Assembly: GCA_002633005.1 (NCBI GenBank)
Contig: NMRA01000353.1
Coordinates: 71,625-135,624, forward strand
DNA length: 64,000 nt
Origin: Phoronis australis
Taxonomy: Eukaryota; Animalia; Phoronida
Direction: 5' to 3'
Shown here: one piece after another, positions 1-26,322 of the stretch
How the letters are laid out: each line of letters starts with the position of its first letter
How positions within the stretch are numbered: the first letter of the stretch is position 1
The notes under the pieces: model-generated
Databases searched by the model: none
Seen by the model: the letters and a program-made list of their open reading frames with translations, nothing else
Told to the model about the DNA's origin: nothing
Position numbers and translations under genes: made by a program

Positions 1-467
1 AAAGTTTTTCTCAGTTCATCATTGTCAATGCCCGTTACAATTCTGTCTCTGAGCAGGGTGTCTTTCATGCAGTCGCAGAATTGACAGTTGCGCTGCAAAT
101 GTCGTAGGTTTGTCAAGAAAACATCAAAAGACTCACCTCGCTGCTTCAAAGAGTTGAACAAATACCTTTCATATGTGACGTTGGTCTGTCCAATGATGTA
201 GTCATCAAAGCGTGTGATGGTTGTTGCGACGGTCTTCTCACCATCGAATGTAAAACCGTTGTAAATTCTCAGAGCGTCCGTGCCAATGCAGTTTAAAAAC
301 ATTGCCAGTTTATACTCTTCAGGTTGTCCATCGAGCTTTGACAAAAGGGCATAATTAGTCCACTGTTGCCTCCACAGTTCCCACTGTCCGATTCTGTCAG
401 CGGCGGACAAATCCAGTGTCTGTGGTGGTTTGATTGCGGGTAGGAATTTGTCAGTTCCCTCAGCCAT
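1..467 (-). CDS. gag: Ty3/Gypsy-type Gag, 5' part (ORF runs off the window start)
   Basis: ATG at 467, open frame to position 1: MAEGTDKFLPAIKPPQTLDL...WELWRQQWTNY...LAMFLNCIGTDALRIY...NVTYERYLFN...QRGESFDVFLTNLRHLQRNCQF...LLRDRIVTGI, a typical Gypsy Gag pattern. Absent from the ORF track because it has no stop in the window. Confidence 0.9.
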   Translation of the reverse strand, partial: MAEGTDKFLPAIKPPQTLDLSAADRIGQWELWRQQWTNYALLSKLDGQPEEYKLAMFLNCIGTDALRIYNGFTFDGEKTVATTITRFDDYIIGQTNVTYERYLFNSLKQRGESFDVFLTNLRHLQRNCQFCDCMKDTLLRDRIVTGIDNDELRKT

Positions 468-540
468 GTCAGTATCGATGTAGAATGTCTCCAACACTAA
501 AATCTGTGTTCCACTGGCTTTAACTCTAAAACCAATGAGT

Positions 541-552
541 TCGCTGCCACCA
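541..552 (-). promoter_or_regulatory. Primer-binding site, tRNA-Leu type
   Basis: Minus strand reads LTR end ...ACA then TGGTGGCAGCG, complementary to the CGCUGCCACCA 3' end of eukaryotic tRNA-Leu(AAG/TAG). Confidence 0.8.
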
Positions 553-820
553 TGTATGAAAACCTCTTTCAAACACAACTCTGTGTTACGGTTTTACGTG
601 GGTTTATTCTAGAGATCTACAAGATACATCTATTCACTATGCTGTCTAACTCTCAACTGAAAACTTGTTTGTCAGAACTAAAGATCATATGCTCATGAGT
701 CATAATCAGATTTCAGAGAATTGTTTTGCACAACTTACACAATCTATGATTCTAGCTACCAGTGCCATATAAGGTTATGTTTTGGACTCTGCAAGTTGAA
801 TGAAAACCACGAACATAACA
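553..820 (-). mobile_element. 5' LTR of the Gypsy element (268 bp)
   Basis: Minus strand TGTTATG...CATACA termini, TATA-like box near 766-772, AATAAA near 604-609, abuts the PBS. Confidence 0.8.
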
Positions 821-2892: not shown

Positions 2893-3293
2893 CAAATAAG
2901 ACGTCACTTGCAGTCGGTCAAGATTGATGAGCTGTTTATGAAACAGCCTGATGGAAGCTACATGGCTCTGTCAGATGACAGGTAGTACTGTATTTATACC
3001 CATTCATTGTACTCACCCTTCGCTCTCTGTGTGTGCATAAGTGACTCTTACTGTATAGACCTGTCTTTACACCCGTTCATTGTAGTGACTATTCTCTGTC
3101 TGTGGGTGCGTAAGTGACTTATTACTGTGTAGACCGATCTTGATATCTAATTCATTTTACTGACCCTTCTCTGTGTATTTGACCCAGGTATCCATTTCAG
3201 CGCTTGGAGCATTGACTCGTATCGAAAAAAGGTCATCTATCTTTCAGATCTGTCGCCCATTATTCCATTCAACCCAACTCTATTCTGGAGACT
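2893..3293 (+). CDS. C-terminal half of a ubiquitin-like domain (exons 2893-2981 and start of 3248-3451)
   Basis: Spliced LSDDRSVAHYSIQPNSILE aligns with ubiquitin LEDGRTLSDYNIQKESTLH. Confidence 0.5.
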
Positions 3294-6200
3294 GTGTCTA
3301 ACCCGCTGTGGGTAGCAGCCATGCAGATCTTGCATTTTGAAGCAACCATGAAGCTCAATCAAGAGTTTGAGGACCGCAAAAAGCGCAACATGTGGGAACA
3401 GTCTCAGATTAGGAAAAGGACCATCATGTCTGTCTTGTACAACTCTAAAAAGTATGATGTGATTTTCTTAACTTCTGTATAGAAGAGTGTGAATTATTAA
3501 CCTTGGATATATCTAGTAGCTACACTGAACTTTGTTACCAGATGAGTCATCAGTGTCAGTTAATATGCTTTTGGAAAGTCTTTAATCAAAAATGTTGCAT
3601 GCGTTCTTTCCTTTTTACCTTTTATGAAATGATTTTCAGTTGTGTACTGAAGTCTTTGATATTGTCTGTGTATTTGCCACATGAATATATGTTTTGCGAG
3701 ATAAGTAGAGCAGTGGCTTTTTGTCCCACTTCCTGTGACGTCATGGAGGTAACTTGCTACTACATAGCAGAAATTCGCCTGAATTTTGTGAGGCCCCTTG
3801 TTGGTTTTCAAGACTATGGATGCCTGATGAGGCTCTGCAATGAGATGGTGACTCTGCCTCATTTCCAATGTTCTGAAAGTTGCAAGTGGTCTACTGACTG
3901 TCGTTTTCATTTCTATTTTTCTAGGAATGGTAAGCCAACTCAGATCATCATTTGTATTAGATTAGAACTACTTTTCCAACACCTATAATTACAAATGGGG
4001 ATTTTTTTGCCATTCAGGGAAAGCGACCGACAACCTCCTTTTTTTCTGAGAGAGGATGATCTCAATGCATTTTTGCAGCAGCTTGCTAGAAAAGGTGCTG
4101 AAATGTCTCCGATTACTCTACTATGTTTGAAGAATTATCGCATCCAGTTTGAAGAAGTGGATGTAAAGCAGGAGGAAGACCCCATAGGTTCCTTCGTAAG
4201 TCGTTACAGAAGAATACTGGCCGAGGAATACGGGGGTAACCAAACAATGGGTAAGATTGACCTCAGCTGCAAATATCACCATTGCAGATTGCAACAATAT
4301 TTTGGCCAAGAATTTGTGTCCCAAATGTATTGTCTATGTTAGAATGGAAGAAACGATTCGAAGTGGGAAAAATTATCTAATCTATAAGAATTGAATTTAG
4401 TCATATTCGATTCATATTCTGTTCCAGAAAAAATCAGTTTGTTCAACAAAAATTGCTATTGTGCTTTTAGAAATGAACTAAGTTCTGGGACTAAAACATA
4501 AATTAAGGAAGGTACCCACTTTGAAGGGAAACGAACAAACAAATTTAGAATTATTTTAAGTGAATATTTTTTTATTTTTCATTGAAAATTAAAAAGATGT
4601 GCTGGTTTCTTAAGGTTATGACCCTGACACTGACCTAGACCCATCTGCTGGCATCAATAACAGAAAGAGAAGAAAGACAGCTCCACCTGGTGGTGGTGTG
4701 TCCAGAAACAAGAGAGCCAATCCTACCATTGGTGTTGATTTGTTGAACAAAGGTGGCGCCGCTGCTGGAGCCAGAAGCCGACCAAAAAAGGTGTTTAAGA
4801 CTGTTGTTGCTTTTGGAAGTTAACTCATCTAAATGTCTTCAATGTGTGTTGTGAATTATGTCTCAATTTGTACAGTTCTCCCACAAGTAAAATAACTTAC
4901 TTGGTTGGTTTTAACTTTTCAGGGTCTATTCGAAGTTGTAAATTTGCACATTTTATCACATATCACATTTTGTGTCTTGAAAATAAACATCGAAATTGAC
5001 ATCCTTGTGTAATGAACGCATTAGCCGGATTCTGAGATGTCCATGAAAACCACTCCTATGTGTTTTCTAGTTTATGTTACTTACAAATAATGTTTTTGTT
5101 AACAATCTGTTCTTTACCAGTGTGTCTTCTGCTGATATATCTGCATGTGATGAGTATTTGATCCATGGTGCATAGTATCTTGTTCCTCTGTTTTTTGGTA
5201 GGAAAGATATTGTGATGACTGTGGGGAAGACTACCAGACTGTTGCTGCATTCTATTGCCCTGACTGTGAAGGAGGTCTGGCATTATGTGCTATCTGTTGC
5301 GATACCATTCACAGAGGTGCTGCCAGAAGAAATCACCAGGTGGCAGGTAAGTGATGATTGTCAATAGTAATAGTGGTCCTACTGATCATTTTTATGGTCG
5401 TGTCCATCATTGATGACAACTAAACAGTGCAAGTATATGACAATAGTCACTTCCCTGGATACCGCAGTGCCCTCTGATTCTGCTGGGTTTACCCACAATG
5501 CTGCACGTCCATAGTGCACTTAGCCTGCAGTTGTACTGTGGTGCTGTGCTAATCACTATTTTTGCATTAAAAACTACTCTACTGTTTTAATAAGTACAGT
5601 TTATTGTTGCATATTGAGTTGCAATGCAGACATGATTAATTTTAAAAAGATGTATGAGGCTTGAGAATTCAGTTTTTCACTTGTCTGCCTAGGCTCACAA
5701 ATGTAATTTTTGCCCTTTTTTTGAAAATTAGGTCAATCAAAAAATGCACTTTCCTACCTCCATAAAAGAGGAGAATTGAATACGCGATGTGGGAATCATC
5801 TATTTACCAACTAGGTTCCTAAATATAAATATAAATTGTTGCTAAAGTTCTGCTCCTTATTTTTTTGCTGTTTACAGTATCGTCTGGTTACGACTACCTA
5901 TAAAATCAATCGTGATTTAGAAATTCCAACGATTGCAATCTTGTGGTGTTCGTTTATTGAAGAATGTTAGTCAGCGTAAACAGCTTTTGCATATGTTGCA
6001 AGTTGATGTGTGTCATGACACTGAAGGCCGGGTTGACATGGCACGAGTTGATGTGTGTCATGACACTGAAGGCTGGGTTGACATGGCACGAGTTGATGTG
6101 TGTCATGACACTGAAGGCCGGGTTGACATGGCACGAGTTGATGTGTGTCATGACACTGAAGGCCGGGTTGACATGGCACGAGTTGATGTGTGTCATGACA

Positions 6201-9200
6201 CTGAAGGCCGGGTTGACATGGCACAAGTTGATGTGTGTCATGACACTCTCGGAACACGCAGCTATTGACACTAAGTTATTTTGCTCATGCACAAGATAAC
6301 AGTTACGCGAAGGTAAATATGAATTAATATTTACTAAATGCTTTTGGATTTCATTTTTCAGTTCTATCCAACTTGGCAAAGATTTTTTAATGTAACAGAT
6401 CTCCATGCTTGAATATTTTCGGGCTGTCACAATCTTTAGCTACCACAATCGAACCCATCGTAAATGTCCGGGGGTGTCTGTCTTGTGTGTCAAGCATGCA
6501 AGTCCATTAGGAAATGTTTATGCAGTGTGCACATGTGTTGATAGTGTTTACTTATAAAATGTGTGCAAATACTGAAGTTAGGGGACATCGTGTACTCAAT
6601 ATGCATGGTAAAGTCAGGAGGACATTGCGTACTCAATATGCATGGTGAAGTCAGGGGGACATCATGTACTCAATATGCATGGTGAAGTCCATTTCCCTAC
6701 TCTGGAATGTAATGAAATTTCTTGGAAAATGTCAATGTCATCCATACTAACTCACTGGAAAAATTTTGCACACAGTTAAGATGGCCAACAACAGCATACT
6801 TAACAAAGGGAGGTTGCAGCGTTAGCGTCAATCAGGCACAAGTTAGGTTACTGTTTGTGCTTAAAGAAGAAGAAGAGTGCCACTTTTCACTAATTGTTAG
6901 AGAAAAATATGTGGATAATTATTGATGGTCGTATTGTTAGAGTGTCTGTGAACCTGGAGAGGATACCATACCTTTTGTTGTGTGTAATCCCGTTCATAGA
7001 TGAAATTGTTGTTCTTTGATTCTCTCCCATTTCTGCTTTATTTGTAGACATTTCAACTGCACCAAAGCAGACTAAACAATATGCTCCAGAGGTGGGTGCT
7101 GTGAATTAGTTTGCTTTAAAATATTGCTTGTATGTCAGGTTAAATGTCTTTCAGCTTTTTTCAACCCTGTTATACTGGTCATTGACTGGTCACTGACTGG
7201 TCATTCCTTTAACAAACAGCTGAAAAACGTTTTTGTGATTATTGTTGGATGGAATATACTTTTTGATGTTATTAGTTTTGACCAGACCTATTAAGGAGAA
7301 TGCCATCCAAAAAACAAAATATTTTGTATCAGTTTAGATCGAGTAGTTCCGCTCGATAACAGCAAGTACAGTTCTTTTACCTGACACCTGACGGCAGAAG
7401 GTGTTGAAATTAAGCGATGACGTCAGAAGTACGAACACGATCTGCTCAGCAGTTCACAACACGCTTACTGGTGTGAGCTTATCGCTTGAATTCATCGTTT
7501 TACACCAATAAATCTTCAAAATTTGATGTAAATCTCTTACAAATACATCGAGTTATTGAACAAACGTGTTGTTTTGTTTTGCTGTTATGGATTTATAAGT
7601 ATTTAAACGTACCGTAGCCTACAAAGTTTGATTGGCCAATTTACCAAGGTCGGTCGCGAGAGTTTGGGGTCTGATAAATTCGAATCATTCTTTCGTGAAA
7701 TACAGACAGGAGAACATAGCTGTGGGTTTTAATTTTAGACTTGGAATTTTTTCAGTTCTTAACACAAAACGCTTGTTATCCTGGCCAGTGGCTCGGAACC
7801 CAATCAGGCCCATCGTTGCCGGACTGAAGACATCACGAACATTAAACCAGCCAAAGTTGGAAACTAAACTTCCAGTCACGAAAAGACTGTACTAGTGAGC
7901 CAAAGAAATAATATGCACGTGATTATTTTGATGAATTAGCTGCGAAACTGCAAATCTACGTACTTTTCGGGAGCCGCGAAGTCAGGTTCCCCTTCCACAG
8001 AACTGTCAAAGCAAAAGTTGTACAGTAACAATGATTTGAATAATGTATATGTTTTTCTATATAGAGATTTCCCTAACACACGGCCTCGGTGCACAGCCAA
8101 TTAGCTTTATTGCATCTGAACCCGGTAACGCAGTGATTTATTCATTGCTGGCTTCTCAAAACATTTGCACTCACGAACACTCCAAAGGCATTACAAATTG
8201 TATCTAATGAGACACGCTTCGTTTCAGTTTTATAAAACCTTTGGTTAGGGTGAGAATAATTCATTTTGAAACAGAACACACAATAATAAACGTCATCATG
8301 GCAACTCACTGTAACCCAATCATAATCTAGTTGCTTTGAATGCTAATTTCTTTGTATTCCTCCTTCAGCCCTACAAAGCACCCTTTGCCTTACTGGTCGC
8401 CCTGTACAGCGGATACAATGAAACACCCAAGAAACTTAGCATGGCTGAAGATGAAGTGAAAGAAAGAGCTCAGAAGTTAACTGACACTGATCTTAATGAT
8501 CGACAATATGGTAATAGGCAATGGGTGCTATGGTAACAGAGGTGTGGACAGTATGGTAATAGGCAACAGGTGCTATGGTAACAGAGGTGTGGACAATATG
8601 GTTATAGGCTGGGGGTGCTATGGTAACGGGGGTGTGGGCAATATGGTAATAGGCAACGGGTGCTATGGTAACAGAGGTGTGAATAATATGGCAATAGGCA
8701 NAATATGGTAATAGGCAACGGGTGCTATTTTAACGGGGGTGTGGGCAATATGGTAATAGGCAATGGGTGCTATGGTAACAGAGGTGTGAATAATATGCTA
8801 ATAGGCAGCGGGTGCAGTATGGTTACTTGGGTGAGGGTTAGATGGGAGGTGGAGGGAATGGCATTGGTTTATGAAGTAGGATTTGTGTAGAAAATATAGA
8901 AAAGGACAGACTTGGGATTCCATGTTACATTCTGCCAAAAGTTTACTTAGCCTGATTATTGATAAAGCATGAATATTGTATGACATGAAATTATGTAACA
9001 GGTTATTTGGTGATAGGCCACGATGAAAAACCAGCAACTTTACTTTAAGTGAAATTGTGTACTGTATAACACATGCAACGAAATGCAGAATTTAGTTTAG
9101 AGACAGATTACTGAATCAACTTAACGGGGTCATTATAAATGATATGAATGTTGTGAAGGAAATGGTCTTCTTCAGTATTATGTTTGGAGGGACAGAAAGT

Positions 9201-12200
9201 GGAGTTTCCTATAAAGCCTTGTTCCCACTATTAGTATGTTCGCACGAGTGTCTAAATTGCAAATCAAAATGTGACACCAATTTTTGCCCTTAGTTTTTTT
9301 ACTCGCCATCGGAATTTCTCTTAAGTGACAATTGATGTCAAAACAAATTCACTGTGCAATAAATTGATTACTGTGACTATAACCAAAGCCCTCTTACTGC
9401 TGTGCATGTGTGTCCTGTGAAGTAAGTGGTCTGGCTATAAAAGTTCTTGCGAAAACACCAGGGGTGAGTGGTACAGCTGGCAAAGTGACCCTTGTTACCG
9501 TTCACATGACGGGCGCTTTTGCTTTCTAGTGAAAACGCTAGAATTTTAGGCAGATTGTGAATGGAGTATGTAAATTCATTTATCTAATGGAACAATTATT
9601 ATGTTACTCCACATAATTTTTTTTGCTTGGCAGTTTGTATGCTACACACCACATTTGTTGATTGACCAACGTGGAATTTACACACAGCATGTGTCTTGTC
9701 AATTGGTTTGTTTTGGTTGAAAGACTCAAGGTGGCACTGTGATTGCCTTTTTAATGTAGCCTTTTCCATAGGCATTGCTCTGGTGTCTTGTGATAGACAA
9801 TTCTGAAACTTGGTAGACCTCTGTGAATAAATATTGTCACGGACTGCAAACAGTCTGTCACACGCTTTTCTCTACAACTTAATGTTTGTGAGTTCTTTGA
9901 GATGTAGTGATGTCTGCTCTTTTATCAACAAGTTTTTTACTGGAGGTTTATTGGTTCACCAAGCTATTTGTTACTTAATCTTAAATCGTTCTTTTTATTG
10001 TCTATCATTGTTTTCATACAATTTACAATTGTTGTTCTTTTGAATGTTTTCAGTTTGAATACAGTTTTATTGTTTTAATTTCAGGAAAGTTTGTAAGTGG
10101 CTTTGACTGTATGGATCGTTCACTGATATCAAAAGGCTTAGTACAAAAAGAAGACGCTGCCAATCCAACGTATGGGTGATCACGTATTTTAATAAAACTT
10201 TCTATCACTCGTCCTTTAACTTATGCAGTGAGGAAGTTATTGTTTGTTTCTTAGAATTTAACATTACTGTTAGTTTCATATTCATTACACCATATCTTAA
10301 ATGTCAATTGTCGTATAGTGTTTTGATTTTACTTTATTTCTGTTTCTGTTGACAAAGGACGTTATTACATCCGAAAATTTCAGTTGATCCATTCTTTTTG
10401 TTTTATTTACCTATTTATATTAGTTTCATAAATACAGTTAGTAAGTATTTTTTTGACATTTTGGGTTTTGCTGTTGACTGTTGAGATGTTTTGTAATTTA
10501 ATTTTCAGTATTTGAAACTTATGGAGATAGTTTTATGAGAAAAGCGTCTGTATTTGAAATTAAGTGATGTGAAGTTTCACTTTTTTCTCAGATAACTGTG
10601 TTCCAGACTACAGAGACTTTCCTTGACTAAAATTGCTATGAGTCACTAATCAAATATTTCTCATTAATAATTACTGAATTATTGAAACATTTCAACTAAA
10701 TATGTTCACTTCACTTGTACCTTCACCCGAATTTCTTTCGACGCAGGTATGCTTTGACAGAGTCTGGAGCGGCCCTTGCCAAACGCCTGTCCATCTACCA
10801 TGATGCTTTCTCTAGATTCAAGTTGTCCACTAATCTGCCTGTGTTACCTGATCTGGCGCAGGGACATCCTCAGGGGTAAGACTGCAGCACATCTCTACAG
10901 TGCTTTACTTTCCTTTTATCAAACCTCATTCTCAGTTTATGGTAAATTAATACAATTTACTATAAATATTGTGCCAGAACCTGGTACTAGAATGGTTTGG
11001 AACATTTTTGCAATATTAGAAGTCTTCAATGTTATGAAGATTTATTGAATTAACACATAGTAACAACCAGATTTGTTGCCATGACGAAACCCAATACAAT
11101 CTCAATATCAAATGCAAAAAATATAAATAACTGGATTAACAGTCCAAGTTAAGAAATAATTTAAAGAACTCTCCATGTGAGATCTATTACCGTAATTTTG
11201 TTCATTTGGTGGAAGTCAGTCACTGTTATAGGCTGACAATCTGAAACCTTTTCCTACTTAAGGTTTCTCACATTTTATTAGAGTGCTGAGTTCTTGTGAT
11301 GACAGCTTATACTGTTTAATTTTATTATTCTTGCTTTAGTACCCGTTGCAAAAACAGAAATGTGGTCTTGATCATTGATGAGCGAGAGAGAGACAAAGAT
11401 CGTCTGGTCGCTCAGTGTAGGCAAGCAGGTATTGCAACACAGATCCGTGAGTTACCATCAGGAGACTACATATGGCTGCTGCCACCTGTCTGGGCTGACA
11501 AGAACTACTCACAGACCATGGCAGATTTAGAAGTGGTAAGGTGGCATCCTGGATTAATTAGCATTTTTAAAACACCTTGCAGTGCTAAATAGGTCAAGCC
11601 AAAATCCCCAACTTCGAAAGTGAATAAATCAAATTAATGGTGTTCAATTTTACCGTTGAAGTAACCATGAGTACACTTGGTCTATGGTGTAAACATGTGT
11701 AATTAACTCACAGTTATTACAATATCAAAACAAAAGACTCTACTTTAAAATATGAATCAAGCATGTGGGTTTAAAATGTTATGTCTTTCATTAAATTAAG
11801 AATACATCAAAGCAGAGCCCTTGGTCTAAGCTTTGTATTCAAAATTATTTTTTACTTTCTCCATTCTACTTTGTTGCAAACTCAATAAAAATTTCTGTTA
11901 TTGGGATTGGGAAACGAGAGGTGAGTACACCATTAGCTAGAGGACCCATTACTCTGATTGGTTGGAACAAGAACCAATGACATCAATTTTGTACTTCGAT
12001 ATGGCACTTGTGTCAAAGTTGATATGTACTCACATTGGGCAATGTTTCACAAACACCAACAGTGGTTGTGATTTATCTTCAAACAGTTGTCATTTGTAAT
12101 CTGAATATATTTGGAATCCTCTTCCCTCATATGTGTTGCTTGCAGGTGCTTCCTTATATAGTTGAGCGCAAAACATGGGATGACTTGGCCAACAGTTTGA

Positions 12201-15200: not shown

Positions 15201-18200
15201 ATGTTCCATTCATGAATGGGACGGCATGTGCGAACTTTCGGACGGATCCGACTACCGGTGTGCCCCCTAGTGGCAATTTTAGTTTTTTACGCTTACCTTT
15301 GTATCTTCAAAAGTCCTGAATGGATTTTCATGAAATTTGGTATGTAGGCACCTAGTAGTGAGATGACGCTATCCTGCCGTTTTCGGATGGATTCGACATA
15401 GTTTGCGCCACCTAGTGGCCATTTTTAGTGTTTTCGAGTCTGTTTTTGTGCTTCCACCCCTCTATCAACCAAACCGCTCAAAGGATGATTGTGAAAATTG
15501 GCATGTATGTGCTTACTATGTAGAGGACGGTTGACGATGATTTTCCGACGATTTCGACTACTGTGGCGCCTCCTAGTGGCAGTTTTGTTTTTTTGCGCCT
15601 ATGGCTGTATCTCCTAAACCGTTCGCAGGATCTTTACAAATTGTGTAAGTATATTTATATGATGTTAACAACGGAAGATGACGACTTTTGGTCGGATCCG
15701 ACTACCGGTGTGCCCCCTAGTGGCAATTTTAGTTTTTTACGCTTACCTTTGTATCTTCAAAAGTATTGAACGGATTTTCATGAAATTTGGTATGTAGGCA
15801 CCTATTAGTGAGATGACGCTATCCTACTGTTTTCAGATGGATTCGACGTAGTTTGCGCCACCTAGTGGCCATTTTTACTGTTTTCGAGTCTGTATTTTTG
15901 CGTCCACCCCTCTATCAACCAAACCGCTCAAAGGATGATTGTGAAAATTGGCGTGTATGTGCTTACTATAAGGAAGACAGCTGACAATGATTTTCAGACG
16001 ATTTGGACTACTGTGGCGCCTCCTAGTGGCAGTTTTGTTTTTTTGCGCCCATGGCTGTATCTCCCAAACCGTTTGCAGGATCTTTACTAAATTTAGCAAG
16101 TGTATTTATGTGATGTTGACAACGGACGATGACGACTTTAGGATGATTCTGATTACCGGTATGCCTCTAGTGGCAATTTTAGTATTTGCCTCTAGTGGCA
16201 ATTTTAGTATTTTACATTGACCTCTGTATTTTCATAGGTCTTCAGGTGTATACTTTGTGTTACTTCGTGACTGTGAAGGAAAAGTTCCAAGTAGAAATTT
16301 GTTTCTGGCATTCTAATGCTGTGCTAATCTCGTATGTTGGTAAATTTGTTTTTAATTCTATGTTTCTGTGGTGCTTTAAGCAACTGGTGTATAGGATGTG
16401 CTTGTATTATGAAGATTACTCACATTTTGCCCCTAGCCTATTGAGGAGACAATGACCATGCCTTTCCATTTTGCAAAGTATGCCCTCTACTGGCCACTTT
16501 ATGGTACCAATAAACAACCCTAGAAGGATACCGTATGCGGTGCAATTGTGGGCGCATTTCAACGCTCCGCGTTGCTCTTGTATTTTATTGTTTTGGTTTC
16601 TATGCATATAAATCACTTGTCGACTGTTCTTTCACAGAGATGTGAGTGCATGCTGTTTTATGTGGTTGAAGGAGACATTGATGGGATGAGAACCAAACCA
16701 GCTGATCCTTATAAACGATTCCTTGAAGTAAGTTCATCATATCAAATCTCATTATCTGCTCCTTGTAAACAGTTCTTTGCCTCAGTATGCCATGTGTGTT
16801 CCTACTTACTTTCTGTGCACTTTGGTTGCCATTGGCCCTTTTGTCTAAATATACTCGAGTGTCCTGCTTTATGCACTCTGATTCAGGAACAGTGTAAAGT
16901 AAACAATATTGAGGAATTGTGAACTTAAGGTAGTCATGTGTGAGATACTTTCTCTGATTCTGAACATCAAATATTAACTACGAGACAGTGACATTTCTAA
17001 ATGTTTTTCGTGTTCATTAACCAATAATGTTGCAGAACAAAGTGTCAGAGTTGCAACTTAAGGAGAATGTGTTTGTTAACCACACGTCAAGCTGGAAGAA
17101 GACAGCACAGTTTCTGATCTGGATGTCGTATCTTATCGCTGAGAAACACTGGGCAGGTAAGAAAGAAGCTTTGAAGAGGAGCCTCGCTGCATTTATGATT
17201 TCCGCAGCTGCTTTTGCAATGATTGAAATCAAGTACTATTTTTGTGATGTGAAGCTCTAGGGGTTTAACCATGACTTTGTTGTTTTCAGTAGGGTGGTTC
17301 AGCCATCTGATGCTGTATATTTATGGATATAGTGACCCAAAAGCCATAGACTCTAAGTTAGCTAGCAATTCTTCAACAACACTATTCAATTATTGACTTT
17401 CACCGGGGTCAATTTTTTATCAGTATCACATTTTTGGAGTCTGATCAAGTGTGAAAGTCAATAAATTATAATTTTTTTTCATTCTGTAAGTACATTTGCC
17501 AACTAACTCATCGAAGAAGGCTGGGCTTTTGGTTGTACGTTTATTACTCATTCGGTCAGTCAGGTACTGGTTTTTTAACCAAAACATTATGGAGAGATTT
17601 TGAAAAAACTTTCAGGAGATACAAATGGACAAAAGAATAATCAGTTTTAGTTTGGGAAAGATATATTTTTTTGGAGTCATACAAAGGTCCATCTTAATAC
17701 AAAACAATCAACAAACGTCATTTAGTGAAGTCCTTGCAATCATGAGTGTGATGGAGAGAACTGGGATGCCTTGATGCGGGTTTACTTTCCTCTGGTGGTT
17801 TACATTTTGCGATTATTTTAAAACAAATGTGACTTGGAAATCTAGATTAATTAAAAGACTTTTGATTTTGGTGACTTACTGGTAGAGTACTGGTAAAGTC
17901 AAAGTTTGCACCATGAGAGAGACTGGGTTCAAATCTTGATGAAGTAATTGCATATCAGGAAAGCATTTTGAAATTAAATAATTATTGGAAATGGCATTTC
18001 CATAGTAGCGGAAATATTGTGACTTATTGACAAATACTGGTTAAAATTAACTCCACAATCTGTCCAAATCATAGGATAAAACAGTGTTTATGTAGATGAC
18101 AAATAATATCGTGTGCATGTAGTATTCATAGTGACTTTTAACAAAATGTGTGTCACTGTACAGGGCAGAGTGTTGGCACTATGACTTATACTGAGTACAC

Positions 18201-21200
18201 TGCTAAAGCTAACAGCACAGAGGTTGTACCCGTGGTGAACTTGAAAAAGAATGTGAATATTTGGACAGCTGATCTATTTATTGATCTCCTAATCAGGTGA
18301 GCTATTCTGTTTGGCTTACTTTATTGTTTCGTGAAAACAACACCTTAAGGTGGCACTAGATGTGGTCTAATGGTGTGTACATTATTCGGACCAGCTGTTT
18401 ACTGACATGTTTCTCATAGTCAAGTTTCTTAGAGTTACAACATATCAATTCATCAATTGCTACTAAGATTTTGTGACATTATAAGGTTCATTCACAAACT
18501 TGAGTGAAACTTTTGCAATTCTTCTGCTGAATTGACTTTTTGCATTTGCACGACTGCTAAAAACAGGCAAAAGGATGAAGATGTGCGTTCATAGTTTACC
18601 TTATTTTACTTGTCACACATTATCCATAAAAGTGTTTTGATTTCTAAAGTGTGATTGAGTGTTTTTTGGTTAAACTTTTAATCCATTGTGCATGAGAGTA
18701 AATGATGAGAGACAATCAGTCGTACACAACAACCACAGGGCAGTCTCAGCTGGGGATCATCTCAGTCTCCCAGGACATATCACTGTGCTGGTCATCGCAG
18801 GTGAACGTTTAGATTTATTTGTGGAAACGCGCGAGGCATAGCAATGTTCAAAATGTTGGGGATTTGTTATAATTTGTTTTGACGTCATATTGTATATACC
18901 ATTATTCCTATGAGTGTAGTTAATATAGCTTAACAGTCTATTTTTCTGTCATACTCGTTTGCTACCTGTTCTCTATTATGAAGAGTTTAGCATCATTTGT
19001 CACTGATATATTTATATTTAATTTAAACTGTTTTAGAGATTCATGTGGCGAGAGCAGCTTTTGCTGCCACCTCAACAACGTGTTATCAACCCATGCCAGA
19101 CCCACACTGCTAGTTATACAAGACCTGTTACAGTATAACAAGGTATGTTATCAACCCATGCCAGACCCACACTGTTAGTTATACAAGACCTGTTACAGTA
19201 TAACAAGGTATGTTTTGCATCTCATCTAAAATCCTTCATACTAGACTGGCTTTTAAACTGTTCAGAAATAATAATGTAAACACCCGATTCATTGCTTTTT
19301 GTTAATTAATTGCTCTTGTTTTTGTTACTCTGTCAATACCAAAAAGTTAATATGCCATGATAATTTGTGGGAGAGGCTGGAATAGGACCAGTGATCAATC
19401 AATTAGATTTTAGATATTATCATTAGCTATCAGAATAACGGGCTAACATAATTGCATTACATGAAAAACAATGTGAACTGTGCTGATATGCTTGTCATAC
19501 ATATGGCAATGCATTTTAAAAATCAAAAGACATTAGTTTGTAGATATGTGCCATCTGATGTAGTTACATTAGGCACAACTTAACTATGATAGCTGAGAAA
19601 GGGGTGTACGCTCTTGGGGCTTTTTAGTCGGTTGTTTGTTACATTTCACACATCTTCCTACACATCTTCCTACACATCTTCCTACACATCTTCTCACAAT
19701 ATTCATGTGCTCGACTGGAACCTGAAAGTTGGTCTGGCTTCAGTAGATGATTACTGATTTTTAGATGAGAAGCAAACTACTCAAAAGGTGCGGGGATGTT
19801 TTCATTACAGCTAACAGGAACGCAACAGGTATTTATGTTTGAATTAAAAATTTTTAATTAGTGATTGTCAGTTGTGGAGTTATCAAGTGCCACCATTTGA
19901 AAGACTTTTCCATCTTCTCTGTGTTGCCTTATCTCCTTTTGTGAGACATGGTAACTTTTATGTTACTTTTTATAAATCTTCAAGATATCGTAAACAATAA
20001 ATTATAATTGTAAATGTTGTTTTTCTCTTTGCAAATCTACATCGTCTCTATTGGTTACTTCTGGGTTTGCTTTTGTTGTAGAGTGTATAACAAATTGTAT
20101 AGAGAACACAAAGAGTCAACTCATTCATTATGACATCACAACGTATTGGCAACTCTATATCCAGGTATATTTTGTGTTTACCTACATACAGTTGTATAGC
20201 TGGTGATGCTCCTCTATGGGTGTTTGGACATGATGGCATACAGTTGTGTCACGCCTAATACTGATGAGTGACCTAGTGGAACTAGTAACTGTTTAAGCTG
20301 CTGACTTGTGTTGTGCAATGAGTGTAAGTGGTGTGGGCCATAGAGTATGACATTTGTGTGACTATGAGTTGCCTTATAACTGTTGTGCAACAATGGGTCA
20401 TTGGAGAGCACATGATAGCTCTATGGTCATCCTACATTATATACCTGATTGTTCAAATGTTTCACTATTGTGCAATTGTCCTTTGTTAATTTCATGGCTT
20501 CAGATTATCTCACGGCAGTCGTACGTTTTGCTCTCCATCAATCTTGACTTCTTATAAAAAAACACGTCCAGTGAGTGTAATGCTCTGAAAGTCTCAGAAG
20601 TCCAAGAAAGCCTCACCCACTACACTCTGTAGGAGAATGACTATACGTAATAACACTGTTTTTGACATGTTAGTTAGTGAGTTACATTAAAAATGATATT
20701 TTATTACCATGAAAACTGATCCATATATATGTTGTACCCATGGCCCTTTGGCTACAGAAAGTGTTTGTCCAGCATCTCTCATGTCTTTAGGTCATACATC
20801 ATGTCAGTGTTATAAGGACAGAAGATGATGAAACAACCAAGTCAGTTCAGAAACTCTACATGGGCGAGGGGACACGCAGTCAAGACACAGTAGTGGAGGT
20901 AGTTATGTAGTCTGTTTGACTAGTTACGTACTTCTGCATTACAGAGATGGCAGATTGAAATTTTATGCCAATGTTGTGAATTTTTTTCTAAGGAGTAAGA
21001 CCAGTACAGGGCTCTCTCTCACTTGAGAGTAAAGGTACCTGAGGGGAATTTTTTGTTTGGTTGAGCGGAGTACTTCTCGGTCACCACCAATTCCACCTCC
21101 CCGGTTGCCACCTCCATCTATATTTCAATATTGGTTCTCAAAATCGAGGTCTCAAGGATCGTGTAGTAGCAAGCAATGTGACAGAGATGAATGGAGGTTC

Positions 21201-24200
21201 GGGTTTGAAAGTAATGCAGTTTTCCAATGGTACCATTTGATTTCTAAATTGTGCTAAAAACTGCTAACCTCAATACTGTTCAATATTTTTGGCCAAGAAA
21301 ATTGTTGGAGTAAGCAAAAAGTGCTGTATGATACAAGCTCTTCAAACTTTTTTAAAATAAATAAATAGGACTTCAATATAAAGCAGCTGTAGTAACTAGA
21401 AACATTGGTATTCCAGGTTGTTGTTGACCATGACACTAGAGACTGTAGTTTTGTGAAAGAGGACTATGCAAGTGATTCACAAACATTCAGAGTGATGATG
21501 GAACAGGCAAGTCATTTGATGTGTAATGCCTTTTATCATGGTAACCGTAGTAAGAGAAGTATTAAATAGTCCTCTATTATCTACTTAATGTGTGTTGTGA
21601 ATTTGCGTATCTGAGAACTTTTGATGATTAGAAGAAAGTTGTGACACAGTTGTCAGCACTTATCATTGCCCTGGTTTACCTCTAGGCTTTAGAAGAGAGT
21701 AAAAACACGTCTGCTCCATGTCAACATGTAAGACGTGAAGATGAGTACTTTGCTGTGGGTGTCAAGGAAAGTGAGGTTGTCAACAGGTCACAGTCTTCTT
21801 CTATTGATGTAACTACGCTCACAGACTCTCAACAGCTTGAGTTAGCTCTTGAACAAAGCAAATCCATTTATGTGGAAGAGACAACACAAAGGGGAGAGTC
21901 TTCATCCAGATTCAATGGTGATTTATCTACACTGACAGACTCTCAAAAACTGGAGATGGCTCTAGAACAAAGTGAGTCAATTGACGTGGTCACGATTCAA
22001 ACAAAAGACACTCTGTCTGAGGGTTTTGATGGCATAACTTCTGGATTGACAGAATCTCAGGAATTTGAGTTGGCTCTGCAAGAAAGCCGATCTTTCTGTG
22101 TAAATGAGACATCAACTCCTAAAGACCCTCAATCTAAGTGCCATATAACCACTTCACACAACGTGGGCAATAGTGTAAGTAATGACTGTGTTGGTATAGC
22201 TAATGAAGATGATGATTTGAAACTGGCATTGGCTCTAAGCATGTCAGAGGTCAAAGGGGAACACTTCACACAATCCGACTGGAGCTTGCCAGAGGTGAAA
22301 CACAATCACTTTTTACGAACAGATGGTAATTGGTCAGATCGATTCTCACAGAATGCAGATAGCGTAGCAGTGGTTAAGCCATGTCACTTAACACAAACTG
22401 AAAATTCTCCAATAAATACACCAAAGTTTGGAAATTGCGAGAGGATTACAAAAGCTGTTGAGGAGGATTTGAGATGTGTTCGCAGAGAAGCTCAGGCCAA
22501 GTGGAGGGGAACAGCCAAATGTGTAGCGACTGGTAAACACAAACATTCAGTGTCAGATGATGAACTCCTTGCTCGTACACTTCAACACCAGTTTGATACA
22601 GGTATGTTATTATTTACAGTCAATGTGGTGGTAATGCTGCAAATGGTATTTGGATGCTGTAATTTCCAATTGGTCGTAGACAAAAATTTAAAACACAATG
22701 CCTTATTTAATTCCTAAAGTGGTGATTTTTGTCATATTTTGTCTGTACTCATGTTATTTTCTGCATTGTTTTCATCTTACTTTTTATCAATGTTCACAGC
22801 TCATAGTAGTAGTTAGGGCTGTGGAATCACAACATGTAACATATGGAGGTTATTTCATAATTAATGAATTATGTCATTGTTTTATAGGCTATGTCAATGT
22901 GCACAACAGTGGAGCATTTCAAGATGAGATCCTTGCTAGCAAACTACAAGATGGGTTCCTCAATGCTGATCAGTTGAAACAGAAGTCATACAACCTAAGC
23001 ACAGGTATGGTGCTACCAAATTGACACAGAAGTCATACAACCTAAGCACAGGTATGGTGCTACCAAATTTTGGTCTGTCTACCTAAACATCATCCTTCTT
23101 TGCTCTCGAGCAAACTCCGCTCTGCATTGCTCTTGTACATTTTTGTTGAAATAACATGGCACATGAACTCATTTTCAGTGTTTGGAGTGAAGGAAGGTTA
23201 CCACAATAACCGTTAGGTAAACAATTCCTTATTTCTTTTAGGTTTCTCTTCACCCAATAAACGAAAAGCTGACAAGATACCCTCAAGTGATAACACGGCA
23301 GACCTAATAAATACCCATAAACAAAGGTGCTTGGAAGTACCCCCCGGCCCTGACTACTCACCTACAGCTGAAGGCAAGGGCAGTAACAGGACTTTAGGAA
23401 AGGATTGGGGAATCCTGGGTAAAGTGTAATCATTGTCTTAGAACAGTATTGTTATAAGGTCTGTTGCCCAAGTTCTGTAGTTGTCAAAAAATGACAAAAT
23501 CATTGTGCCTTTGTCGTATTATCAGTTTTGTTTCAGACTACTACCAAAATGTTTAGTTCAAAGGTATACAACTTTTTTATGTCATCAGAAATGGACTCCA
23601 TTGACAAATAGTTGAATAATAATAGCTCATAACTGAAAGAATTCAAGGTACTTGTTTAATATTCGTGGCAGTTTACAAAACAATGGAACTTTTAGCACAC
23701 AAGCTGTTGGTCATCTCGTGAACAAAATTGAGAAACTTTCAGTTTGAGAATGTTATTCTCAACAATTGCATCAAGCAGCAATACTTGGATAGTAGCTACT
23801 GCAATTTGTTTTTATCCAGTGTTTTACTTTTATAGAGCAAATTTAAGTTTGAAGTTATCGACGTCAAGCCATGGTGATTTTGTTAGTCTGCTTAATATAC
23901 TATTACATTTGTCTTCAAAGATTTTGTACTCTTAACTAGATTTCTCAAGTTATCCAACAGAATCTTCCATGATTCTCTTCAACATATTAAAGCTTTCAAC
24001 AATTTCAGTAATTCCTTTCAAAGTTTTCTCTGATAACAAAATGTATCAGCTGATGTTTCTGCTAATGAAATTACAATTGTGTCACTTAAAAATGAATGAC
24101 CTTGTGCTGATTTAGGTTATAATGAACTAATTTCCTGCTAAACTTGGTCAAAATAATCGCAGCTTACTTGTTCATAAAATGTAAGTGAAAAACTGTGACC

Positions 24201-26322
24201 AAGTAGAATTTGCTGCCTCTTGAAGGGTATCTGGTGAGTTACAGAACCATTCCGCTTGTATGATTTCATAACATTAACAAAAAGTTTTCAATGTTTTTAC
24301 AGAGGCAAGACTCCCTGCTTGTTACTATTGAGACAGAAATAACTTGGCTTCAAGTTGTAATGTGACCTTTTCAGGTACACTTGATGATGACAGTGATGAT
24401 GACTTGCCTGATCTTCCAACTGCTGAACAGTTCATTGGTGACTCTGCAGTTGATAACTGTAAAGGTGAGTTCAGCTGTTGATCATATCATGTTCTGTCAC
24501 GAATTTAAAAATAAAAAGTACCGAAACCAAATAGGCACCTCCGCCATGTCTGTCAACTTGATGGCAAAGGAGACCTAAGATTTGTTTCCGATTTGGGTAC
24601 TAGGTGCTATGTGGACACACAATTTTTAAGAACCGGTACAAATCTGCTTTTTGGCATTTCAGACAATTTTTCCTCATCAACTTGAAACAAATGACTTATG
24701 GCGTGTCTTAGCAATAGCAATGCTTTTTGATGCCTTGTAGTTTCTTTAGAAACAAAGCTCAACCTGCTTACTGTTTTCAGGTGAGACTGGTCTGGCTAGC
24801 AACATGAAATGTGGTGCATGTCAGGGACGTGGTCACTCACGGGTCTGGAAACAGTGTCCACAGTACTGGTCATCAGCTGAAGTGGAGCGCAGGGAGGTAA
24901 ATGAATTTTATCAACTGACAAACAATTTCATATTCTCCTGCCAGGGCACGACTGCTGTTTTCCATTTCTCTTCTATTATATTGGAGTATATTTGGTGTGT
25001 GTATATGCTCAGATTTGTGCAGTTTTAAAGAATGAAAAAGTCCAGGGCCCTGAATCTAATCTTTATACTTAAAACAAACTTGAAATTATGTTTGGCATAA
25101 TTTCTCTGCTCCTTTTGTGTGACCTCAAACTAAGTAGTTATCAGACTGTGCTTGAATATATTAGTTTATGCGTATGAGTTTCTAGTACAGGTTTGTACTT
25201 GAAGACCCATATATTCGTGCTACAAGCTCGAGTAAAAACTCAAAATTTCGAGTTCAAACTTCAAAATTTTAGCCTTAATGTTGGATTTATCAACTGCAAA
25301 TTAGGACTAATAAATTACCCACGTAAGTCATTATGTACTCGAGCATAGAATAATAGACATTTGTCTTGAGTTCGCACTAAAGTAGAGTAGAAAATGCCAA
25401 ACATAATTTTAAGTTCCATTTTGAGTAAAAACATTAGAGACCGGGCCCAGAGCAACACACTAAAACCTATACCAGTTGTATCATGTAAAAATCACCAAGA
25501 CCAAACAAGATTAGGTCAAGTTCATTGCTGTTAATCCAGCTGCTCCAGCTATCAAGTGAATTGACTGTTCATAACCTTAACATGTTCATAACCTCAACCT
25601 GTTCATAATCTCAACATGTTCATAACCTCAACATGTTCATAACCTCCTCAACATGTTCATAACCTTAACATGCAGAGTTAAGAAAGGGAGAATAGTCACT
25701 TACAGGAGTCCCCACATTTAGAGAACCAGTTTTCTGAATAATTGATTATCTGGCATCAAACTGGTTCTTAAAATCTGGCACCCTGTGACTATTGGCAAGA
25801 AAAGTATTTTGTAATTATTTCGATACCAAAACAGAGGTTTGAGGCATCCGGTCTGTGCGTATTACTTGTTGTAGAATAATATTCATTTATTTCACTTATT
25901 TTTGTTGCTTTTAGACTCAAAATCTGAAGAGAAAACAAGCAGCAGAGAAGAAAGTTCAAGAAAAAGAAGCAGCATTAAATGAACTTGTAAGTTAATGTTT
26001 ATTTGTAACAAAAGTGTTCATGAGCAACATGTTTCGCCGTCACTTTTTTGTCCATCAATGTTTTCAGTATTACACAGTGGATTTTGTTCAACTAAAAACC
26101 TCTACTTGATTTTCACATTCCTCTTTCGATCAATAACGTTCATTTATTTTACAGCGTAACAAAGAACAGCAGCTGGAACTGGTCAGTCGCAACGTCCAGC
26201 AGCAGATTGCTGATGTTAAGCGCGGACTGCATGGTTTGATGAACATTGTGGGGGGATGGCCTAAGGAGCCGAAGGGTGGACGAGGGAGGGGTCGGGGAAG
26301 AGGCCAGCGTGGCAGACAATAA
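2893..26322 (+). CDS. MUS81-like ERCC4 endonuclease with Ubl, B-box, winged helix, second EME1-like ERCC4 module, UIM/MIU array, zinc knuckle and RG tail (~1328 aa, 5' partial)
   Basis: Phase-compatible exons: 2893-2981, 3248-3451, 4018-4250, 4615-4790, 5202-5346, 7048-7091, 8369-8510, 10085-10169, 10747-10875, 11340-11535, 12146-12238, 16638-16727, 17036-17156, 18164-18296, 19037-19142, 19765-19828, 20082-20164, 20791-20898, 21417-21506 (GC donor), 21686-22601, 22888-23004, 23242-23418 (donor uncertain; 23373 or 23382 also fit phase), 24375-24464, 24781-24896, 25915-25986, 26155-26322 (TAA). Total 3987 nt, no internal stop. Confidence 0.85.
5202..5346 (+). CDS. B-box zinc finger exon
   Basis: CDDCGEDYQTVAAFYCPDCEGGLALCAICCDTIHRGAARRNH; canonical AG/GT borders. 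Confidence 0.85.
6001..6247. repeat. 45-bp minisatellite x~5.5 containing the palindrome GTGTCATGACAC
   Basis: Near-identical units; explains four overlapping repetitive ORFs. Confidence 0.95.
6583..6689. repeat. 37-bp tandem repeat x3
   Basis: GGACATCGTGTACTCAATATGCATGGT units at 6583, 6620, 6657. Confidence 0.85.
7048..10875 (+). CDS. MUS81-type winged-helix domain (4 exons)
   Basis: KQYAPEPYKAPFALLVALY...EVKERAQKLTD...GFDCMDRSLISKGLVQKEDAANPTYALTESGAALAKRL matches the MUS81 WH pattern (YxPxxxSGxxALLxAL...LIxKxLV...PxRYxLTxxGxxLAxxL). Confidence 0.8.
8502..8826. repeat. 45-bp minisatellite starting at an exon 3' end
   Basis: CAATATGGTAATAGGCAACGGGTGCTATGGTAACAGAGGTGTGGA x~7. Confidence 0.9.
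11340..17156 (+). CDS. ERCC4 nuclease domain with intact catalytic motifs (4 exons)
   Basis: VVLIIDERE...RELPSGDYIW...VLPYIVERKTWDDLANSLRGRRFENQLERMKRC..LFYVVEGD...LQLKENVFVNHTSSWKKTAQFL; GDxnERKxxxD signature of the XPF/MUS81 family. Confidence 0.9.
12829..14407 (+). mobile_element. Non-autonomous Helentron (HINE/DINE-1-like), composite copy
   Basis: 5' TTTTTATGCGCCCACAT with adjacent inverted repeat, a second nested 5' end near 13608, ~150-bp internal repeats, 3' GGGCGCATTT + hairpin + CTTGT. Confidence 0.7.
15062..16581 (+). mobile_element. Non-autonomous Helentron (HINE/DINE-1-like), best-preserved copy
   Basis: Subterminal inverted repeats ATGCGCCCAC/GTGGGCGCAT, (CCGT)n microsatellite, 450-bp tandem unit (15244 vs 15694) built of three ~150-bp subunits, 3' stem-loop CAACGCTCCGCGTTG, T-rich flanks. 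Confidence 0.78.
18164..20898 (+). CDS. Second, degenerate EME1-like ERCC4 module (5 exons)
   Basis: VNIWTADLFIDLL...SFCCHLNNVLSTHARPTLLVIQDLLQYNKMRSK...WQLYIQVIHHVSVIRTEDDETT follows the order of the ERCC4 fold C-terminal half with no ERK motif. Confidence 0.55.
19081..19214. repeat. 65-bp tandem duplication spanning a splice donor
   Basis: Two near-identical copies ending AACAAGGTATGT. Confidence 0.9.
19648..19693. repeat. 12-bp tandem repeat (CACATCTTCCTA) x~4
   Basis: Direct reading. Confidence 0.85.
21417..23004 (+). CDS. Ubiquitin-binding motif array (5 UIM-like, 2 MIU-like)
   Basis: MMEQALEESK, DSQQLELALEQSK, DSQKLEMALEQSE, ESQEFELALQESR, EDDDLKLALALSM; DDELLARTLQ and QDEILASKLQ. 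Confidence 0.75.
22979..23069. repeat. 47-bp tandem duplication spanning a splice donor
   Basis: ACAGAAGTCATACAACCTAAGCACAGGTATGGTGCTACCAAATT twice. Confidence 0.9.
24781..26322 (+). CDS. CCHC zinc knuckle, coiled coil and RG-rich C-terminus (3 exons)
   Basis: CGACQGRGHSRVWKQCP; ERRETQNLKRKQAAEKKVQEKEAALNELRNKEQQLE; GGRGRGRGRGQRGRQ*. Confidence 0.8.
25046..25447. mobile_element. MITE, PIF/Harbinger-like
   Basis: GGCCC...GGGCC termini, ~50-bp imperfect TIRs (AATTATGTTTGGCAT / ATGCCAAACATAATT), CAG 3-bp TSD on both sides. Confidence 0.7.
25567..25672. repeat. ~17-bp minisatellite (TGTTCATAACCTCAACA) x~6
   Basis: Direct reading. Confidence 0.85.

What the first reader, a model, noticed from the sequence alone, without database searches (positions are those of the whole stretch)
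2893..26322. Non-canonical MUS81 paralog: Ubl + B-box + WH + 2xERCC4 + UIM/MIU + zinc knuckle + RG tail, no visible HhH2
Seen: one continuous 3987-nt spliced frame joining all these motifs, with an NLS-like RKRRK. Established: canonical MUS81 is about 550-650 aa with HhH, WH, ERCC4 and HhH2, and in vertebrates is recruited through the SLX4 scaffold, which supplies ubiquitin-binding zinc fingers. Inference: an approximately 1330-aa self-scaffolded, ubiquitin-guided endonuclease, probably a paralog rather than the ortholog, defining a possibly undescribed family.
Basis: partly seen in the sequence, partly recalled or inferred. Interest (0 to 1): 0.88.

Follow-up and report, generated by a model that had tools for sequence, protein, structure and literature searches.

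The report
Single-chain MUS81-like nuclease with built-in partner
This expressed invertebrate gene encodes an uncharacterised relative of the DNA-repair nuclease MUS81, conserved from corals to amphioxus, in which a predicted dead half-copy of the nuclease fold and a string of ubiquitin-binding motifs stand where the usual DNA-gripping tail should be, so it likely cuts branched DNA without the partner and scaffold proteins that MUS81 uses.

Summary
Confirmed: 26 exons at 2893-26322 give one open 3987-nt frame. RNA reads show 11 of the 14 junctions in the 3' half. The start exon (about 40 aa) was not found in the window. Colinear relatives (31-40% identity over ~730 aa) occur in a coral, bivalves, gastropods, an annelid, a brachiopod and amphioxus. 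They are labelled 'uncharacterized' or auto-named MUS81. A model of an abalone relative shows a Ubl, a MUS81-type winged helix (Z 10.3) and a nuclease closest to MUS81 (Z 19.4), with the catalytic motif intact. The 'second ERCC4' is real but is only the C-terminal two-thirds of the fold, without catalytic motifs. The top 11 of 48,161 chains are all XPF-family. It sits where MUS81 has its (HhH)2, and no HhH family was found. Best reading: an ancient MUS81 paralog that likely carries its own EME1-like partner and likely targets ubiquitin itself. Nuclease activity, in-chain docking and ubiquitin binding are untested. No describing paper was found in ten searches.

The parts
2893..26322 (+). Gene body, 26 coding exons (5' coding exon missing): 2893-2981, 3248-3451, 4018-4250, 4615-4790, 5202-5346, 7048-7091, 8369-8510, 10085-10169, 10747-10875, 11340-11535, 12146-12238, 16638-16727, 17036-17156, 18164-18296, 19037-19142, 19765-19828, 20082-20164, 20791-20898, 21417-21506, 21686-22601, 22888-23004, 23242-23418, 24375-24464, 24781-24896, 25915-25986, 26155-26322
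   Evidence: Open 3987-nt frame; 11 of 14 junctions in the 3' half seen in RNA; colinear with relatives
2893..3299 (+). C-terminal half of a ubiquitin-like domain (aa 1-47; exons 1-2)
   Evidence: Aligns with relatives; Pfam ubiquitin in 5 of 17 members, best E 8e-5; model of P0018 residues 17-94 matches ubiquitin, Z 10.8, rmsd 1.6, 68 aligned
3300..4234 (+). [quoted passage not shown]
   Evidence: Conserved in alignment; confidently modelled helices 97-212 in P0018; no Pfam, PDB-sequence or Atlas hit; likeness to MUS81 N-HhH is recalled, untested
4662..4676 (+). Basic NLS-like motif RKRRK (aa 192-196) in a poorly conserved linker
   Evidence: Sequence; function inferred
5202..5346 (+). B-box zinc finger (exon 5, aa 238-281)
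   Evidence: Pfam PF22586 E 1.5e-5 and PF00643 E 0.008; PF00643 in 8 of 17 members
7080..10804 (+). MUS81-type winged helix (aa 294-392; exons 6-9)
   Evidence: Model matches MUS81 WH 2mc3, Z 10.3, rmsd 3.0, 95 of 103 aligned; PF21136 E 0.003 in the coral relative
11350..18216 (+). ERCC4 nuclease domain with intact motifs (D429, E432, G457-D458, E488-R489-K490, D494) plus the MUS81-like linker helix (aa 420-600; exons 10-14)
   Evidence: Pfam PF02732; PDB sequence hits at E<1e-7 are all MUS81; model Z 19.4, rmsd 2.7, 178 aligned to MUS81 vs Z 15.2 to archaeal XPF; motif residues nearly invariant
18250..20862 (+). Truncated, non-catalytic ERCC4-fold domain (aa 612-735; exons 14-18), in place of (HhH)2
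   Evidence: Relative's domain modelled at pLDDT 82; top 11 of 48,161 chains are all XPF-family, best Z 9.1, rmsd 2.3, 93 aligned; Pfam ERCC4 in 3 of 11 members, best E 1e-3; window exons 15 and 18 match the family profile, E 2e-5 and 4e-5
21489..22260 (+). Five UIM-like motifs in a low-complexity region (aa ~772-965); the first is split by the GC-AG intron
   Evidence: One passes Pfam PF02809, E 2e-4; the other four were read by eye; UIM in 10 of 17 members
22555..22970 (+). Two MIU-like motifs (aa ~1068-1105)
   Evidence: By eye against a recalled consensus; similar motifs visible in relatives; no Pfam hit
24804..24872 (+). CCHC zinc knuckle (exon 24)
   Evidence: Pfam PF15288 E 1.4e-4; 10 of 17 members
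24873..26322 (+). Coiled-coil-like helix and basic RG-rich tail (exons 24-26)
   Evidence: blastp hits to relatives continue from the knuckle to aa 1245-1301; coiled coil judged by eye; RG repeat not conserved

Best explanation
The gene encodes a member of a conserved invertebrate family, likely an ancient MUS81 paralog, whose intact nuclease motif is followed by a predicted dead, shortened ERCC4 fold that likely docks on the nuclease in place of EME1, making a likely single-chain, ubiquitin-guided cutter of branched DNA. Shown: the gene structure, expression, conservation and intact catalytic motif. Predicted on a relative: the Ubl, WH, nuclease and half-ERCC4 folds. Inferred: (1) tandem UIM/MIU motifs bind ubiquitin chains at damaged chromatin or stalled forks, the job SLX4's UBZ does for MUS81; (2) the half-domain completes the nuclease/pseudo-nuclease pair in cis; (3) with no (HhH)2, DNA is held by the WH, the basic helix inserted in the half-domain (conserved YNK motif) and perhaps the zinc knuckle and basic tail; (4) the metal site nicks one strand at a junction; (5) the Ubl and B-box recruit partners or regulate turnover.
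For: One open frame and RNA junctions. Whole 1489-aa coral proteins are encoded on ~5-kb Logan contigs. Colinearity is 31-40% over aa ~2-735 with E down to 6e-155, plus a shared C-terminal knuckle. The GDXnV/IERKX3D motif (definition in PMC8117345) is present, and D450, E453, E511-R-K513, D517, R526 and Q530 (P0018 numbering) are kept in 90% or more of rows. The nuclease is closest to MUS81 and the WH matches the MUS81 WH. Domain 2 has an ERCC4 fold but aligns only from MUS81 residue 321, Hef 42 or EME1 305, whereas domain 1 aligns from MUS81 residue 264; it has no GD/ERK motif. The MUS81 match of domain 1 ends at residue 467, just before (HhH)2, and domain 2 follows at once. The 810-aa model has pTM 0.71, which suggests a defined packing of domains (no PAE given). 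Active/inactive pairing through nuclease-fold domains is the family rule (PMC3763369; PMC3834828). UIMs and the knuckle are each found in 10 of 17 members.
Against: Both (HhH)2 domains are described as essential for junction binding by MUS81-EME1 (PMC3834828), so a protein with none may not act on the same substrates, or alone. Domain 2 is not specifically EME1-like: Hef 9.1, XPF 8.7, EME1 8.5 and MUS81 8.3 are tied, Foldseek E-values are 0.056 or weaker, and the profile comparison of domain 2 with domain 1 is not significant. All folds were predicted on the abalone relative, not on the window protein. Four of five UIMs and both MIUs were read by eye. No biochemistry exists. Three junctions inside domain 2 and all 11 5' junctions were not displayed in the RNA tables.
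Confidence: 0.55

Rival explanations
1. It is an active MUS81 paralog, but it still needs a second chain (EME1-type with an HhH, or a second copy of itself). The half-ERCC4 is a partner-binding or regulatory module, not a built-in EME1.
For: All described eukaryotic members are heterodimers that use (HhH)2. Domain 2 lacks about 57 N-terminal residues of the fold. The B-box and coiled-coil-like tail could drive oligomers (inference).
Against: Domain 2 is fused 10-15 residues after the linker helix and is conserved from coral to amphioxus, with 12 invariant columns in 11 sequences. The whole-core model has pTM 0.71.
Confidence: 0.24
2. The fold has been repurposed. Without (HhH)2 it does not resolve junctions but cuts another substrate found through ubiquitin (DNA next to a ubiquitinated protein adduct, R-loops, foreign nucleic acid), or it serves mainly as a ubiquitin-binding scaffold.
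For: No HhH family was found in 17 members. The Ubl, B-box, CCHC knuckle and basic tail are not MUS81 features. Expression is uneven: present in runs X1 and X2, nearly absent in X3.
Against: It keeps the MUS81 WH, the linker helix and all catalytic motif residues, which argues for DNA cutting of a MUS81-like kind.
Confidence: 0.12
3. It is simply the diverged MUS81 ortholog of these animals, as the UniRef automatic name says.
For: UniRef names 7 of the 15 long or named relatives looked up (representatives) 'Crossover junction endonuclease MUS81'. Its best structural and sequence matches are MUS81. A second MUS81 in this genome was not testable.
Against: MUS81-EME1 is listed in fly and human as well as yeasts and a plant, while this architecture spans coral, molluscs and amphioxus. 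One orthologous gene would need the same complex architecture gained or reverted several times. NCBI calls these proteins uncharacterized or hypothetical, or gives unrelated names.
Confidence: 0.07
4. Two or more neighbouring genes were joined by mistake.
For: The 5' junctions and three middle junctions were not displayed. Some database models are partial (P0017, P0018, P0039).
Against: Full-length relatives in five phyla are colinear from the Ubl to the UIMs, and all but the Lingula model also reach the knuckle. Single ~5-kb contigs encode the whole coral protein. Junction reads link the nuclease exons into domain 2, and domain 2 on to the tail.
Confidence: 0.02

Closest known systems
Canonical MUS81 (catalytic subunit of MUS81-EME1/EME2; PDB 2ZIU, 4P0P, 7F6L, WH 2MC3)
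   Same: WH followed by an ERCC4 nuclease with the GD..ERKxxxD motif and the post-nuclease linker helix; best sequence and structure match.
   Different: No detectable C-terminal (HhH)2. It adds a Ubl, B-box, half-ERCC4, UIM/MIU array, zinc knuckle and coiled-coil-like tail. It is 1370-2500 aa rather than about 550 (recalled). Identity in the nuclease is only 25-30%.
EME1/EME2, ERCC1, FAAP24 (non-catalytic partners); Zip2-Spo16 pseudo-nuclease pair
   Same: Domain 2 is a non-catalytic ERCC4 fold next to a nuclease fold.
   Different: It is fused in the same chain, lacks the first part of the fold, has no (HhH)2, and cannot be assigned to EME1 rather than another member.
SLX4 scaffold (SLX4-MUS81-EME1)
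   Same: Ubiquitin-binding modules in a long disordered region are linked to a structure-specific nuclease (SLX4 UBZ: PMC7610648).
   Different: It uses UIM/MIU helices, not UBZ, and in cis. No homology to SLX4 was seen or tested; this is a functional analogy only.
Archaeal Hef/XPF nuclease homodimers (PDB 1J22, 2BGW)
   Same: Top fold matches for domain 2 (Z 9.1 and 8.6-8.7); two ERCC4 folds paired.
   Different: These are homodimers of active domains with (HhH)2; here the pair is asymmetric and in one chain.

Membership tests
XPF/MUS81 (ERCC4) nuclease family | ERCC4 domain | tested here: met
   PF02732 on exons 10, 11 and 13 and in 16 of 17 members; fold Z 19.4
XPF/MUS81 (ERCC4) nuclease family | Catalytic motif GDXnV/IERKX3D | tested here: met
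   G457-D458 ... E488-R-K490-x3-D494 in the model; nearly invariant in relatives; definition from PMC8117345
XPF/MUS81 (ERCC4) nuclease family | Endonuclease activity on branched DNA | not testable with these tools
   Needs biochemistry
Canonical MUS81 | Nuclease closer to MUS81 than to XPF/FANCM/Hef | tested here: met
   All four PDB sequence hits at E<1e-7 are MUS81; Z 19.4 vs 15.2 for archaeal XPF and 12.6 for FANCM
Canonical MUS81 | Winged helix N-terminal to the nuclease | tested here: met
   2mc3, Z 10.3, rmsd 3.0, 95 of 103 aligned; PF21136 weak, E 0.003
Canonical MUS81 | C-terminal (HhH)2 directly after the nuclease | tested here: not met
   That position is filled by a confidently modelled alpha/beta ERCC4-like domain. 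The MUS81 alignment stops at residue 467. No HhH Pfam family at E<=1 in 17 members. RNA junctions leave no room for extra exons at 11 of 14 introns. An Atlas feature hit to PF21292 scored 0.80, which is chance level.
Canonical MUS81 | N-terminal single HhH domain (SLX4-binding) | tested here: inconclusive
   A conserved helical domain lies at that position, but it has no Pfam, PDB-sequence or Atlas match and was not folded alone
Canonical MUS81 | Obligate heterodimer with a separate EME1/EME2/Mms4 | not testable with these tools
EME1-type non-catalytic partner (domain 2) | ERCC4 fold without catalytic motif | tested here: met
   the fold is truncated at its N-terminus
EME1-type non-catalytic partner (domain 2) | Specific descent from EME1 | tested here: inconclusive
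   Hef, XPF, EME1 and MUS81 are within 1 Z unit
EME1-type non-catalytic partner (domain 2) | C-terminal (HhH)2 | tested here: not met
   Domain 2 is followed by a low-complexity UIM region; no HhH Pfam family in 17 members

The most novel reading that the evidence does not exclude
An undescribed branch of animal XPF/MUS81 nucleases, present before the cnidarian-bilaterian split and missing from the standard model animals, that packs catalytic subunit, pseudo-nuclease partner and ubiquitin-targeting scaffold into one chain and recognises DNA without any (HhH)2 domain: a natural single-chain MUS81-EME1-SLX4 analogue.
Probability: 0.5. Interest if true: 0.85.

Novelty: new variant of a known kind. 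Interest (0 to 1): 0.72.

Why it matters
The eukaryotic XPF/MUS81 enzymes described in the papers I read are two-chain complexes that depend on (HhH)2 domains. A conserved single-chain, HhH-less version would show another way to activate and aim this fold. It would give a one-polypeptide system in which to test what the inactive partner really contributes. It would also add a genome-maintenance gene that human, fly, worm and yeast genetics would not have shown. Because UniRef labels many members MUS81, DNA-repair and meiosis gene inventories of molluscs, annelids and amphioxus may be counting the wrong gene.

Tried and rejected
No whole genome is held, so I could not search for a separate MUS81/EME1 or for the 5' exon beyond the window. 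No RNA holder was listed by the index; runs came by species label. Word-based searches with single exons found nothing; HMMER with exon 10 found the family. My first model used a false exon at 18739-18800 (3975 nt); alignment to relatives and the RNA junction 18296>19037 replaced it. tblastn of relatives' N-termini found no first exon in the window (output partly cut). Complex prediction of domain 1 with domain 2 gave no answer (score 0.01, alignment not used, partner fold uncertain). The Atlas gave only a chance-level lead for domain 2 and nothing for the helical domain. hhalign of domain 2 vs domain 1 was not significant. The domain 2 profile vs PDB sequences gave only chance hits, and vs P0025 probability 0.1. 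The viral fold search gave single-domain ERCC4 proteins with TM-scores covering one domain. MUS81's N-terminal HhH structure was not among the 50 rows shown in any fold search. A planned tree, motif count and synonymous-change count did not run because the script machine was lost; no phylogeny is reported. Ten paper searches listed no paper describing this family; (six gene or accession ids) found 0 papers. No vertebrate, arthropod or nematode protein appeared among the named hits, but the searches were narrow, so absence there is weak.
Full report
Gene structure. The window is repeat-rich animal DNA of about 38% GC. I rebuilt the gene from splice signals and corrected one exon after alignment to relatives. 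It starts at a splice acceptor, in the middle of a ubiquitin-like domain. Relatives have about 40 more residues in front, which tblastn did not find in the window (output partly cut). The start exon probably lies upstream of the window (inference).

Expression. Three RNA-seq runs and one contig set under the same species label were laid. In 16600-26700, 11 of 14 predicted junctions appear, on the sense strand, with 3-17 reads in each of X1 and X2 (junction 13/14 in X1 only). The three junctions among exons 15-18 were not among the rows shown; 8 rows were hidden, and those exons do have depth. In the 5' half, repeats filled the junction table, so only low sense-strand depth over exons was seen. 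Run X3 barely holds the gene. The reads differ from the window at fixed positions, so they come from another individual or population.

Family. HMMER with exon 10 against 1.84 billion representatives gave 32 hits, and a profile search gave 9, of which 7 were new. The long relatives are from Mytilus, Pecten, Argopecten, Crassostrea, Saccostrea, Pinctada, Tegillarca, Haliotis, Owenia, Lingula, Branchiostoma and the coral Montipora; a Nucella fragment also matches. Most align to model aa ~2-735 at 31-40% identity, and most match again at the zinc knuckle. NCBI names them uncharacterized or hypothetical, or gives unrelated names; UniRef auto-names several MUS81. Logan contigs of about 5 kb encode the whole 1489-aa coral protein, which is independent support for a single transcript. 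Pfam over 17 members gave ERCC4 16, UIM 10, zinc knuckle 10, B-box 8, ubiquitin 5, MUS81-like WH 1, and no HhH family. P0022 and P0032 had no ERCC4 and were dropped. P0025 has ERCC4 but a different architecture and was left out of the family alignment.

Structure (predicted on the abalone relative P0018). The 810-aa model has mean pLDDT 76 and pTM 0.71. Residues 17-94 match ubiquitin (Z 10.8), 317-419 match the MUS81 winged helix (Z 10.3, rmsd 3.0, 95 of 103 aligned), and 440-626 match the MUS81 nuclease (Z 19.4, rmsd 2.7, 178 aligned, against 15.2 for archaeal XPF). The match runs through the linker helix to human MUS81 residue 467 and stops there. The catalytic motif GDXnV/IERKX3D is intact in the window protein and nearly invariant in relatives. 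The next domain, folded alone (pLDDT 82), has XPF-family chains as its top 11 of 48,161 (best Z 9.1, rmsd 2.3, 93 aligned). The Z values are middling and Foldseek is not significant, but the ranking is clean, and Pfam ERCC4 hits 3 of 11 members. It aligns only from MUS81 residue 321, Hef 42 or EME1 305, so the first ~57 residues of the fold are missing, and it has no GD or ERK motif. It cannot be assigned to EME1 in particular. Its invariant residues (W, YNK, HxD, Q, RxE) show that it is under constraint. The B-box was modelled at low confidence and rests on Pfam. The helical domain after the Ubl has no match; its likeness to the MUS81 N-terminal HhH is my recollection, untested.

How it most likely works. 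In the described complexes an active ERCC4 domain pairs with an inactive one, both (HhH)2 domains grip the DNA, and SLX4 brings ubiquitin binding (PMC3834828, PMC3763369, PMC7610648). Here the inactive fold is fused where (HhH)2 would be, and ubiquitin-binding motifs follow. I infer a single-chain nuclease: the UIM/MIU array tethers it to ubiquitinated damage sites, the half-domain docks on the nuclease as an internal partner, the WH and basic elements hold the DNA, and the intact site nicks a junction. The docking, the DNA binding, the ubiquitin binding and the activity are all untested. The main rival is that it still needs a second chain.

Ortholog or paralog. This could not be tested in this genome, and no tree was built. 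By distribution, MUS81-EME1 is listed for yeasts, Arabidopsis, fly and human, and this family spans coral, lophotrochozoans and amphioxus. Both therefore existed before the protostome-deuterostome split, which makes them paralogs (inference; the canonical domain order in fly is recalled). It fails the (HhH)2 test for canonical MUS81, so I file it as a separate subfamily that likely works like MUS81-EME1.

Literature seen. PMC3834828: abstract, outline and introduction. Passages only: PMC11377751, PMC3969565, PMC3057012, PMC7610648, PMC8117345, PMC10564563, PMC8599992, PMC3620063, PMC3763369. All others: search listings. Ten searches listed no description of this family. The library lacks most subscription papers, and supplements were closed. 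I saw it after my analysis; it is not independent evidence, and it means the family is a repeat within this scan.

Verdict. This is a real, expressed and conserved gene, and a new variant of the XPF/MUS81 kind with an unusual single-chain design. Its mechanism is predicted, not shown. Interest 0.72.

Noticed in passing
window 3-593, - strand: A 197-codon open frame that looks, from recall, like an LTR-retrotransposon gag; no Pfam hit. It probably lies in the intron before the first exon found.
   Followed up: partly
window 12700-16580: A dispersed repeat with a 450-bp unit (2.1 copies at 15234-16187) inside intron 11. It draws RNA depth of about 1000 on one strand in all three runs; similar sequence recurs at about 37000-48000.
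   Followed up: no
window 21507-21685: A GC-AG intron that splits the first UIM-like motif; confirmed by 10 and 5 reads.
   Followed up: yes
window 21880: An in-frame 3-nt insertion in the RNA reads relative to the window, inside the UIM exon; probably an allele.
   Followed up: no
window 50746-51602, + strand: An RNase H domain (Pfam E 7e-17), probably a retrotransposon remnant.
   Followed up: partly
window 33225-33458 and 44334-44618, - strand: Open frames that look by eye like a protein-kinase fragment and a Cys-rich zinc-binding stretch, possibly exons of a convergent neighbour gene; no Pfam hit at E 0.1.
   Followed up: partly
P0025 (ENA, 1506 aa; hit): An unnamed protein with ERCC4, OB-fold and HTH_40 domains. 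A short stretch after the nuclease aligns in register with domain 2 but is not significant; it may be a remote relative.
   Followed up: partly
window 16600-26700, runs X1-X3: The gene is covered in X1 and X2 but almost absent in X3 of the same study, which hints at tissue- or stage-restricted expression.
   Followed up: no
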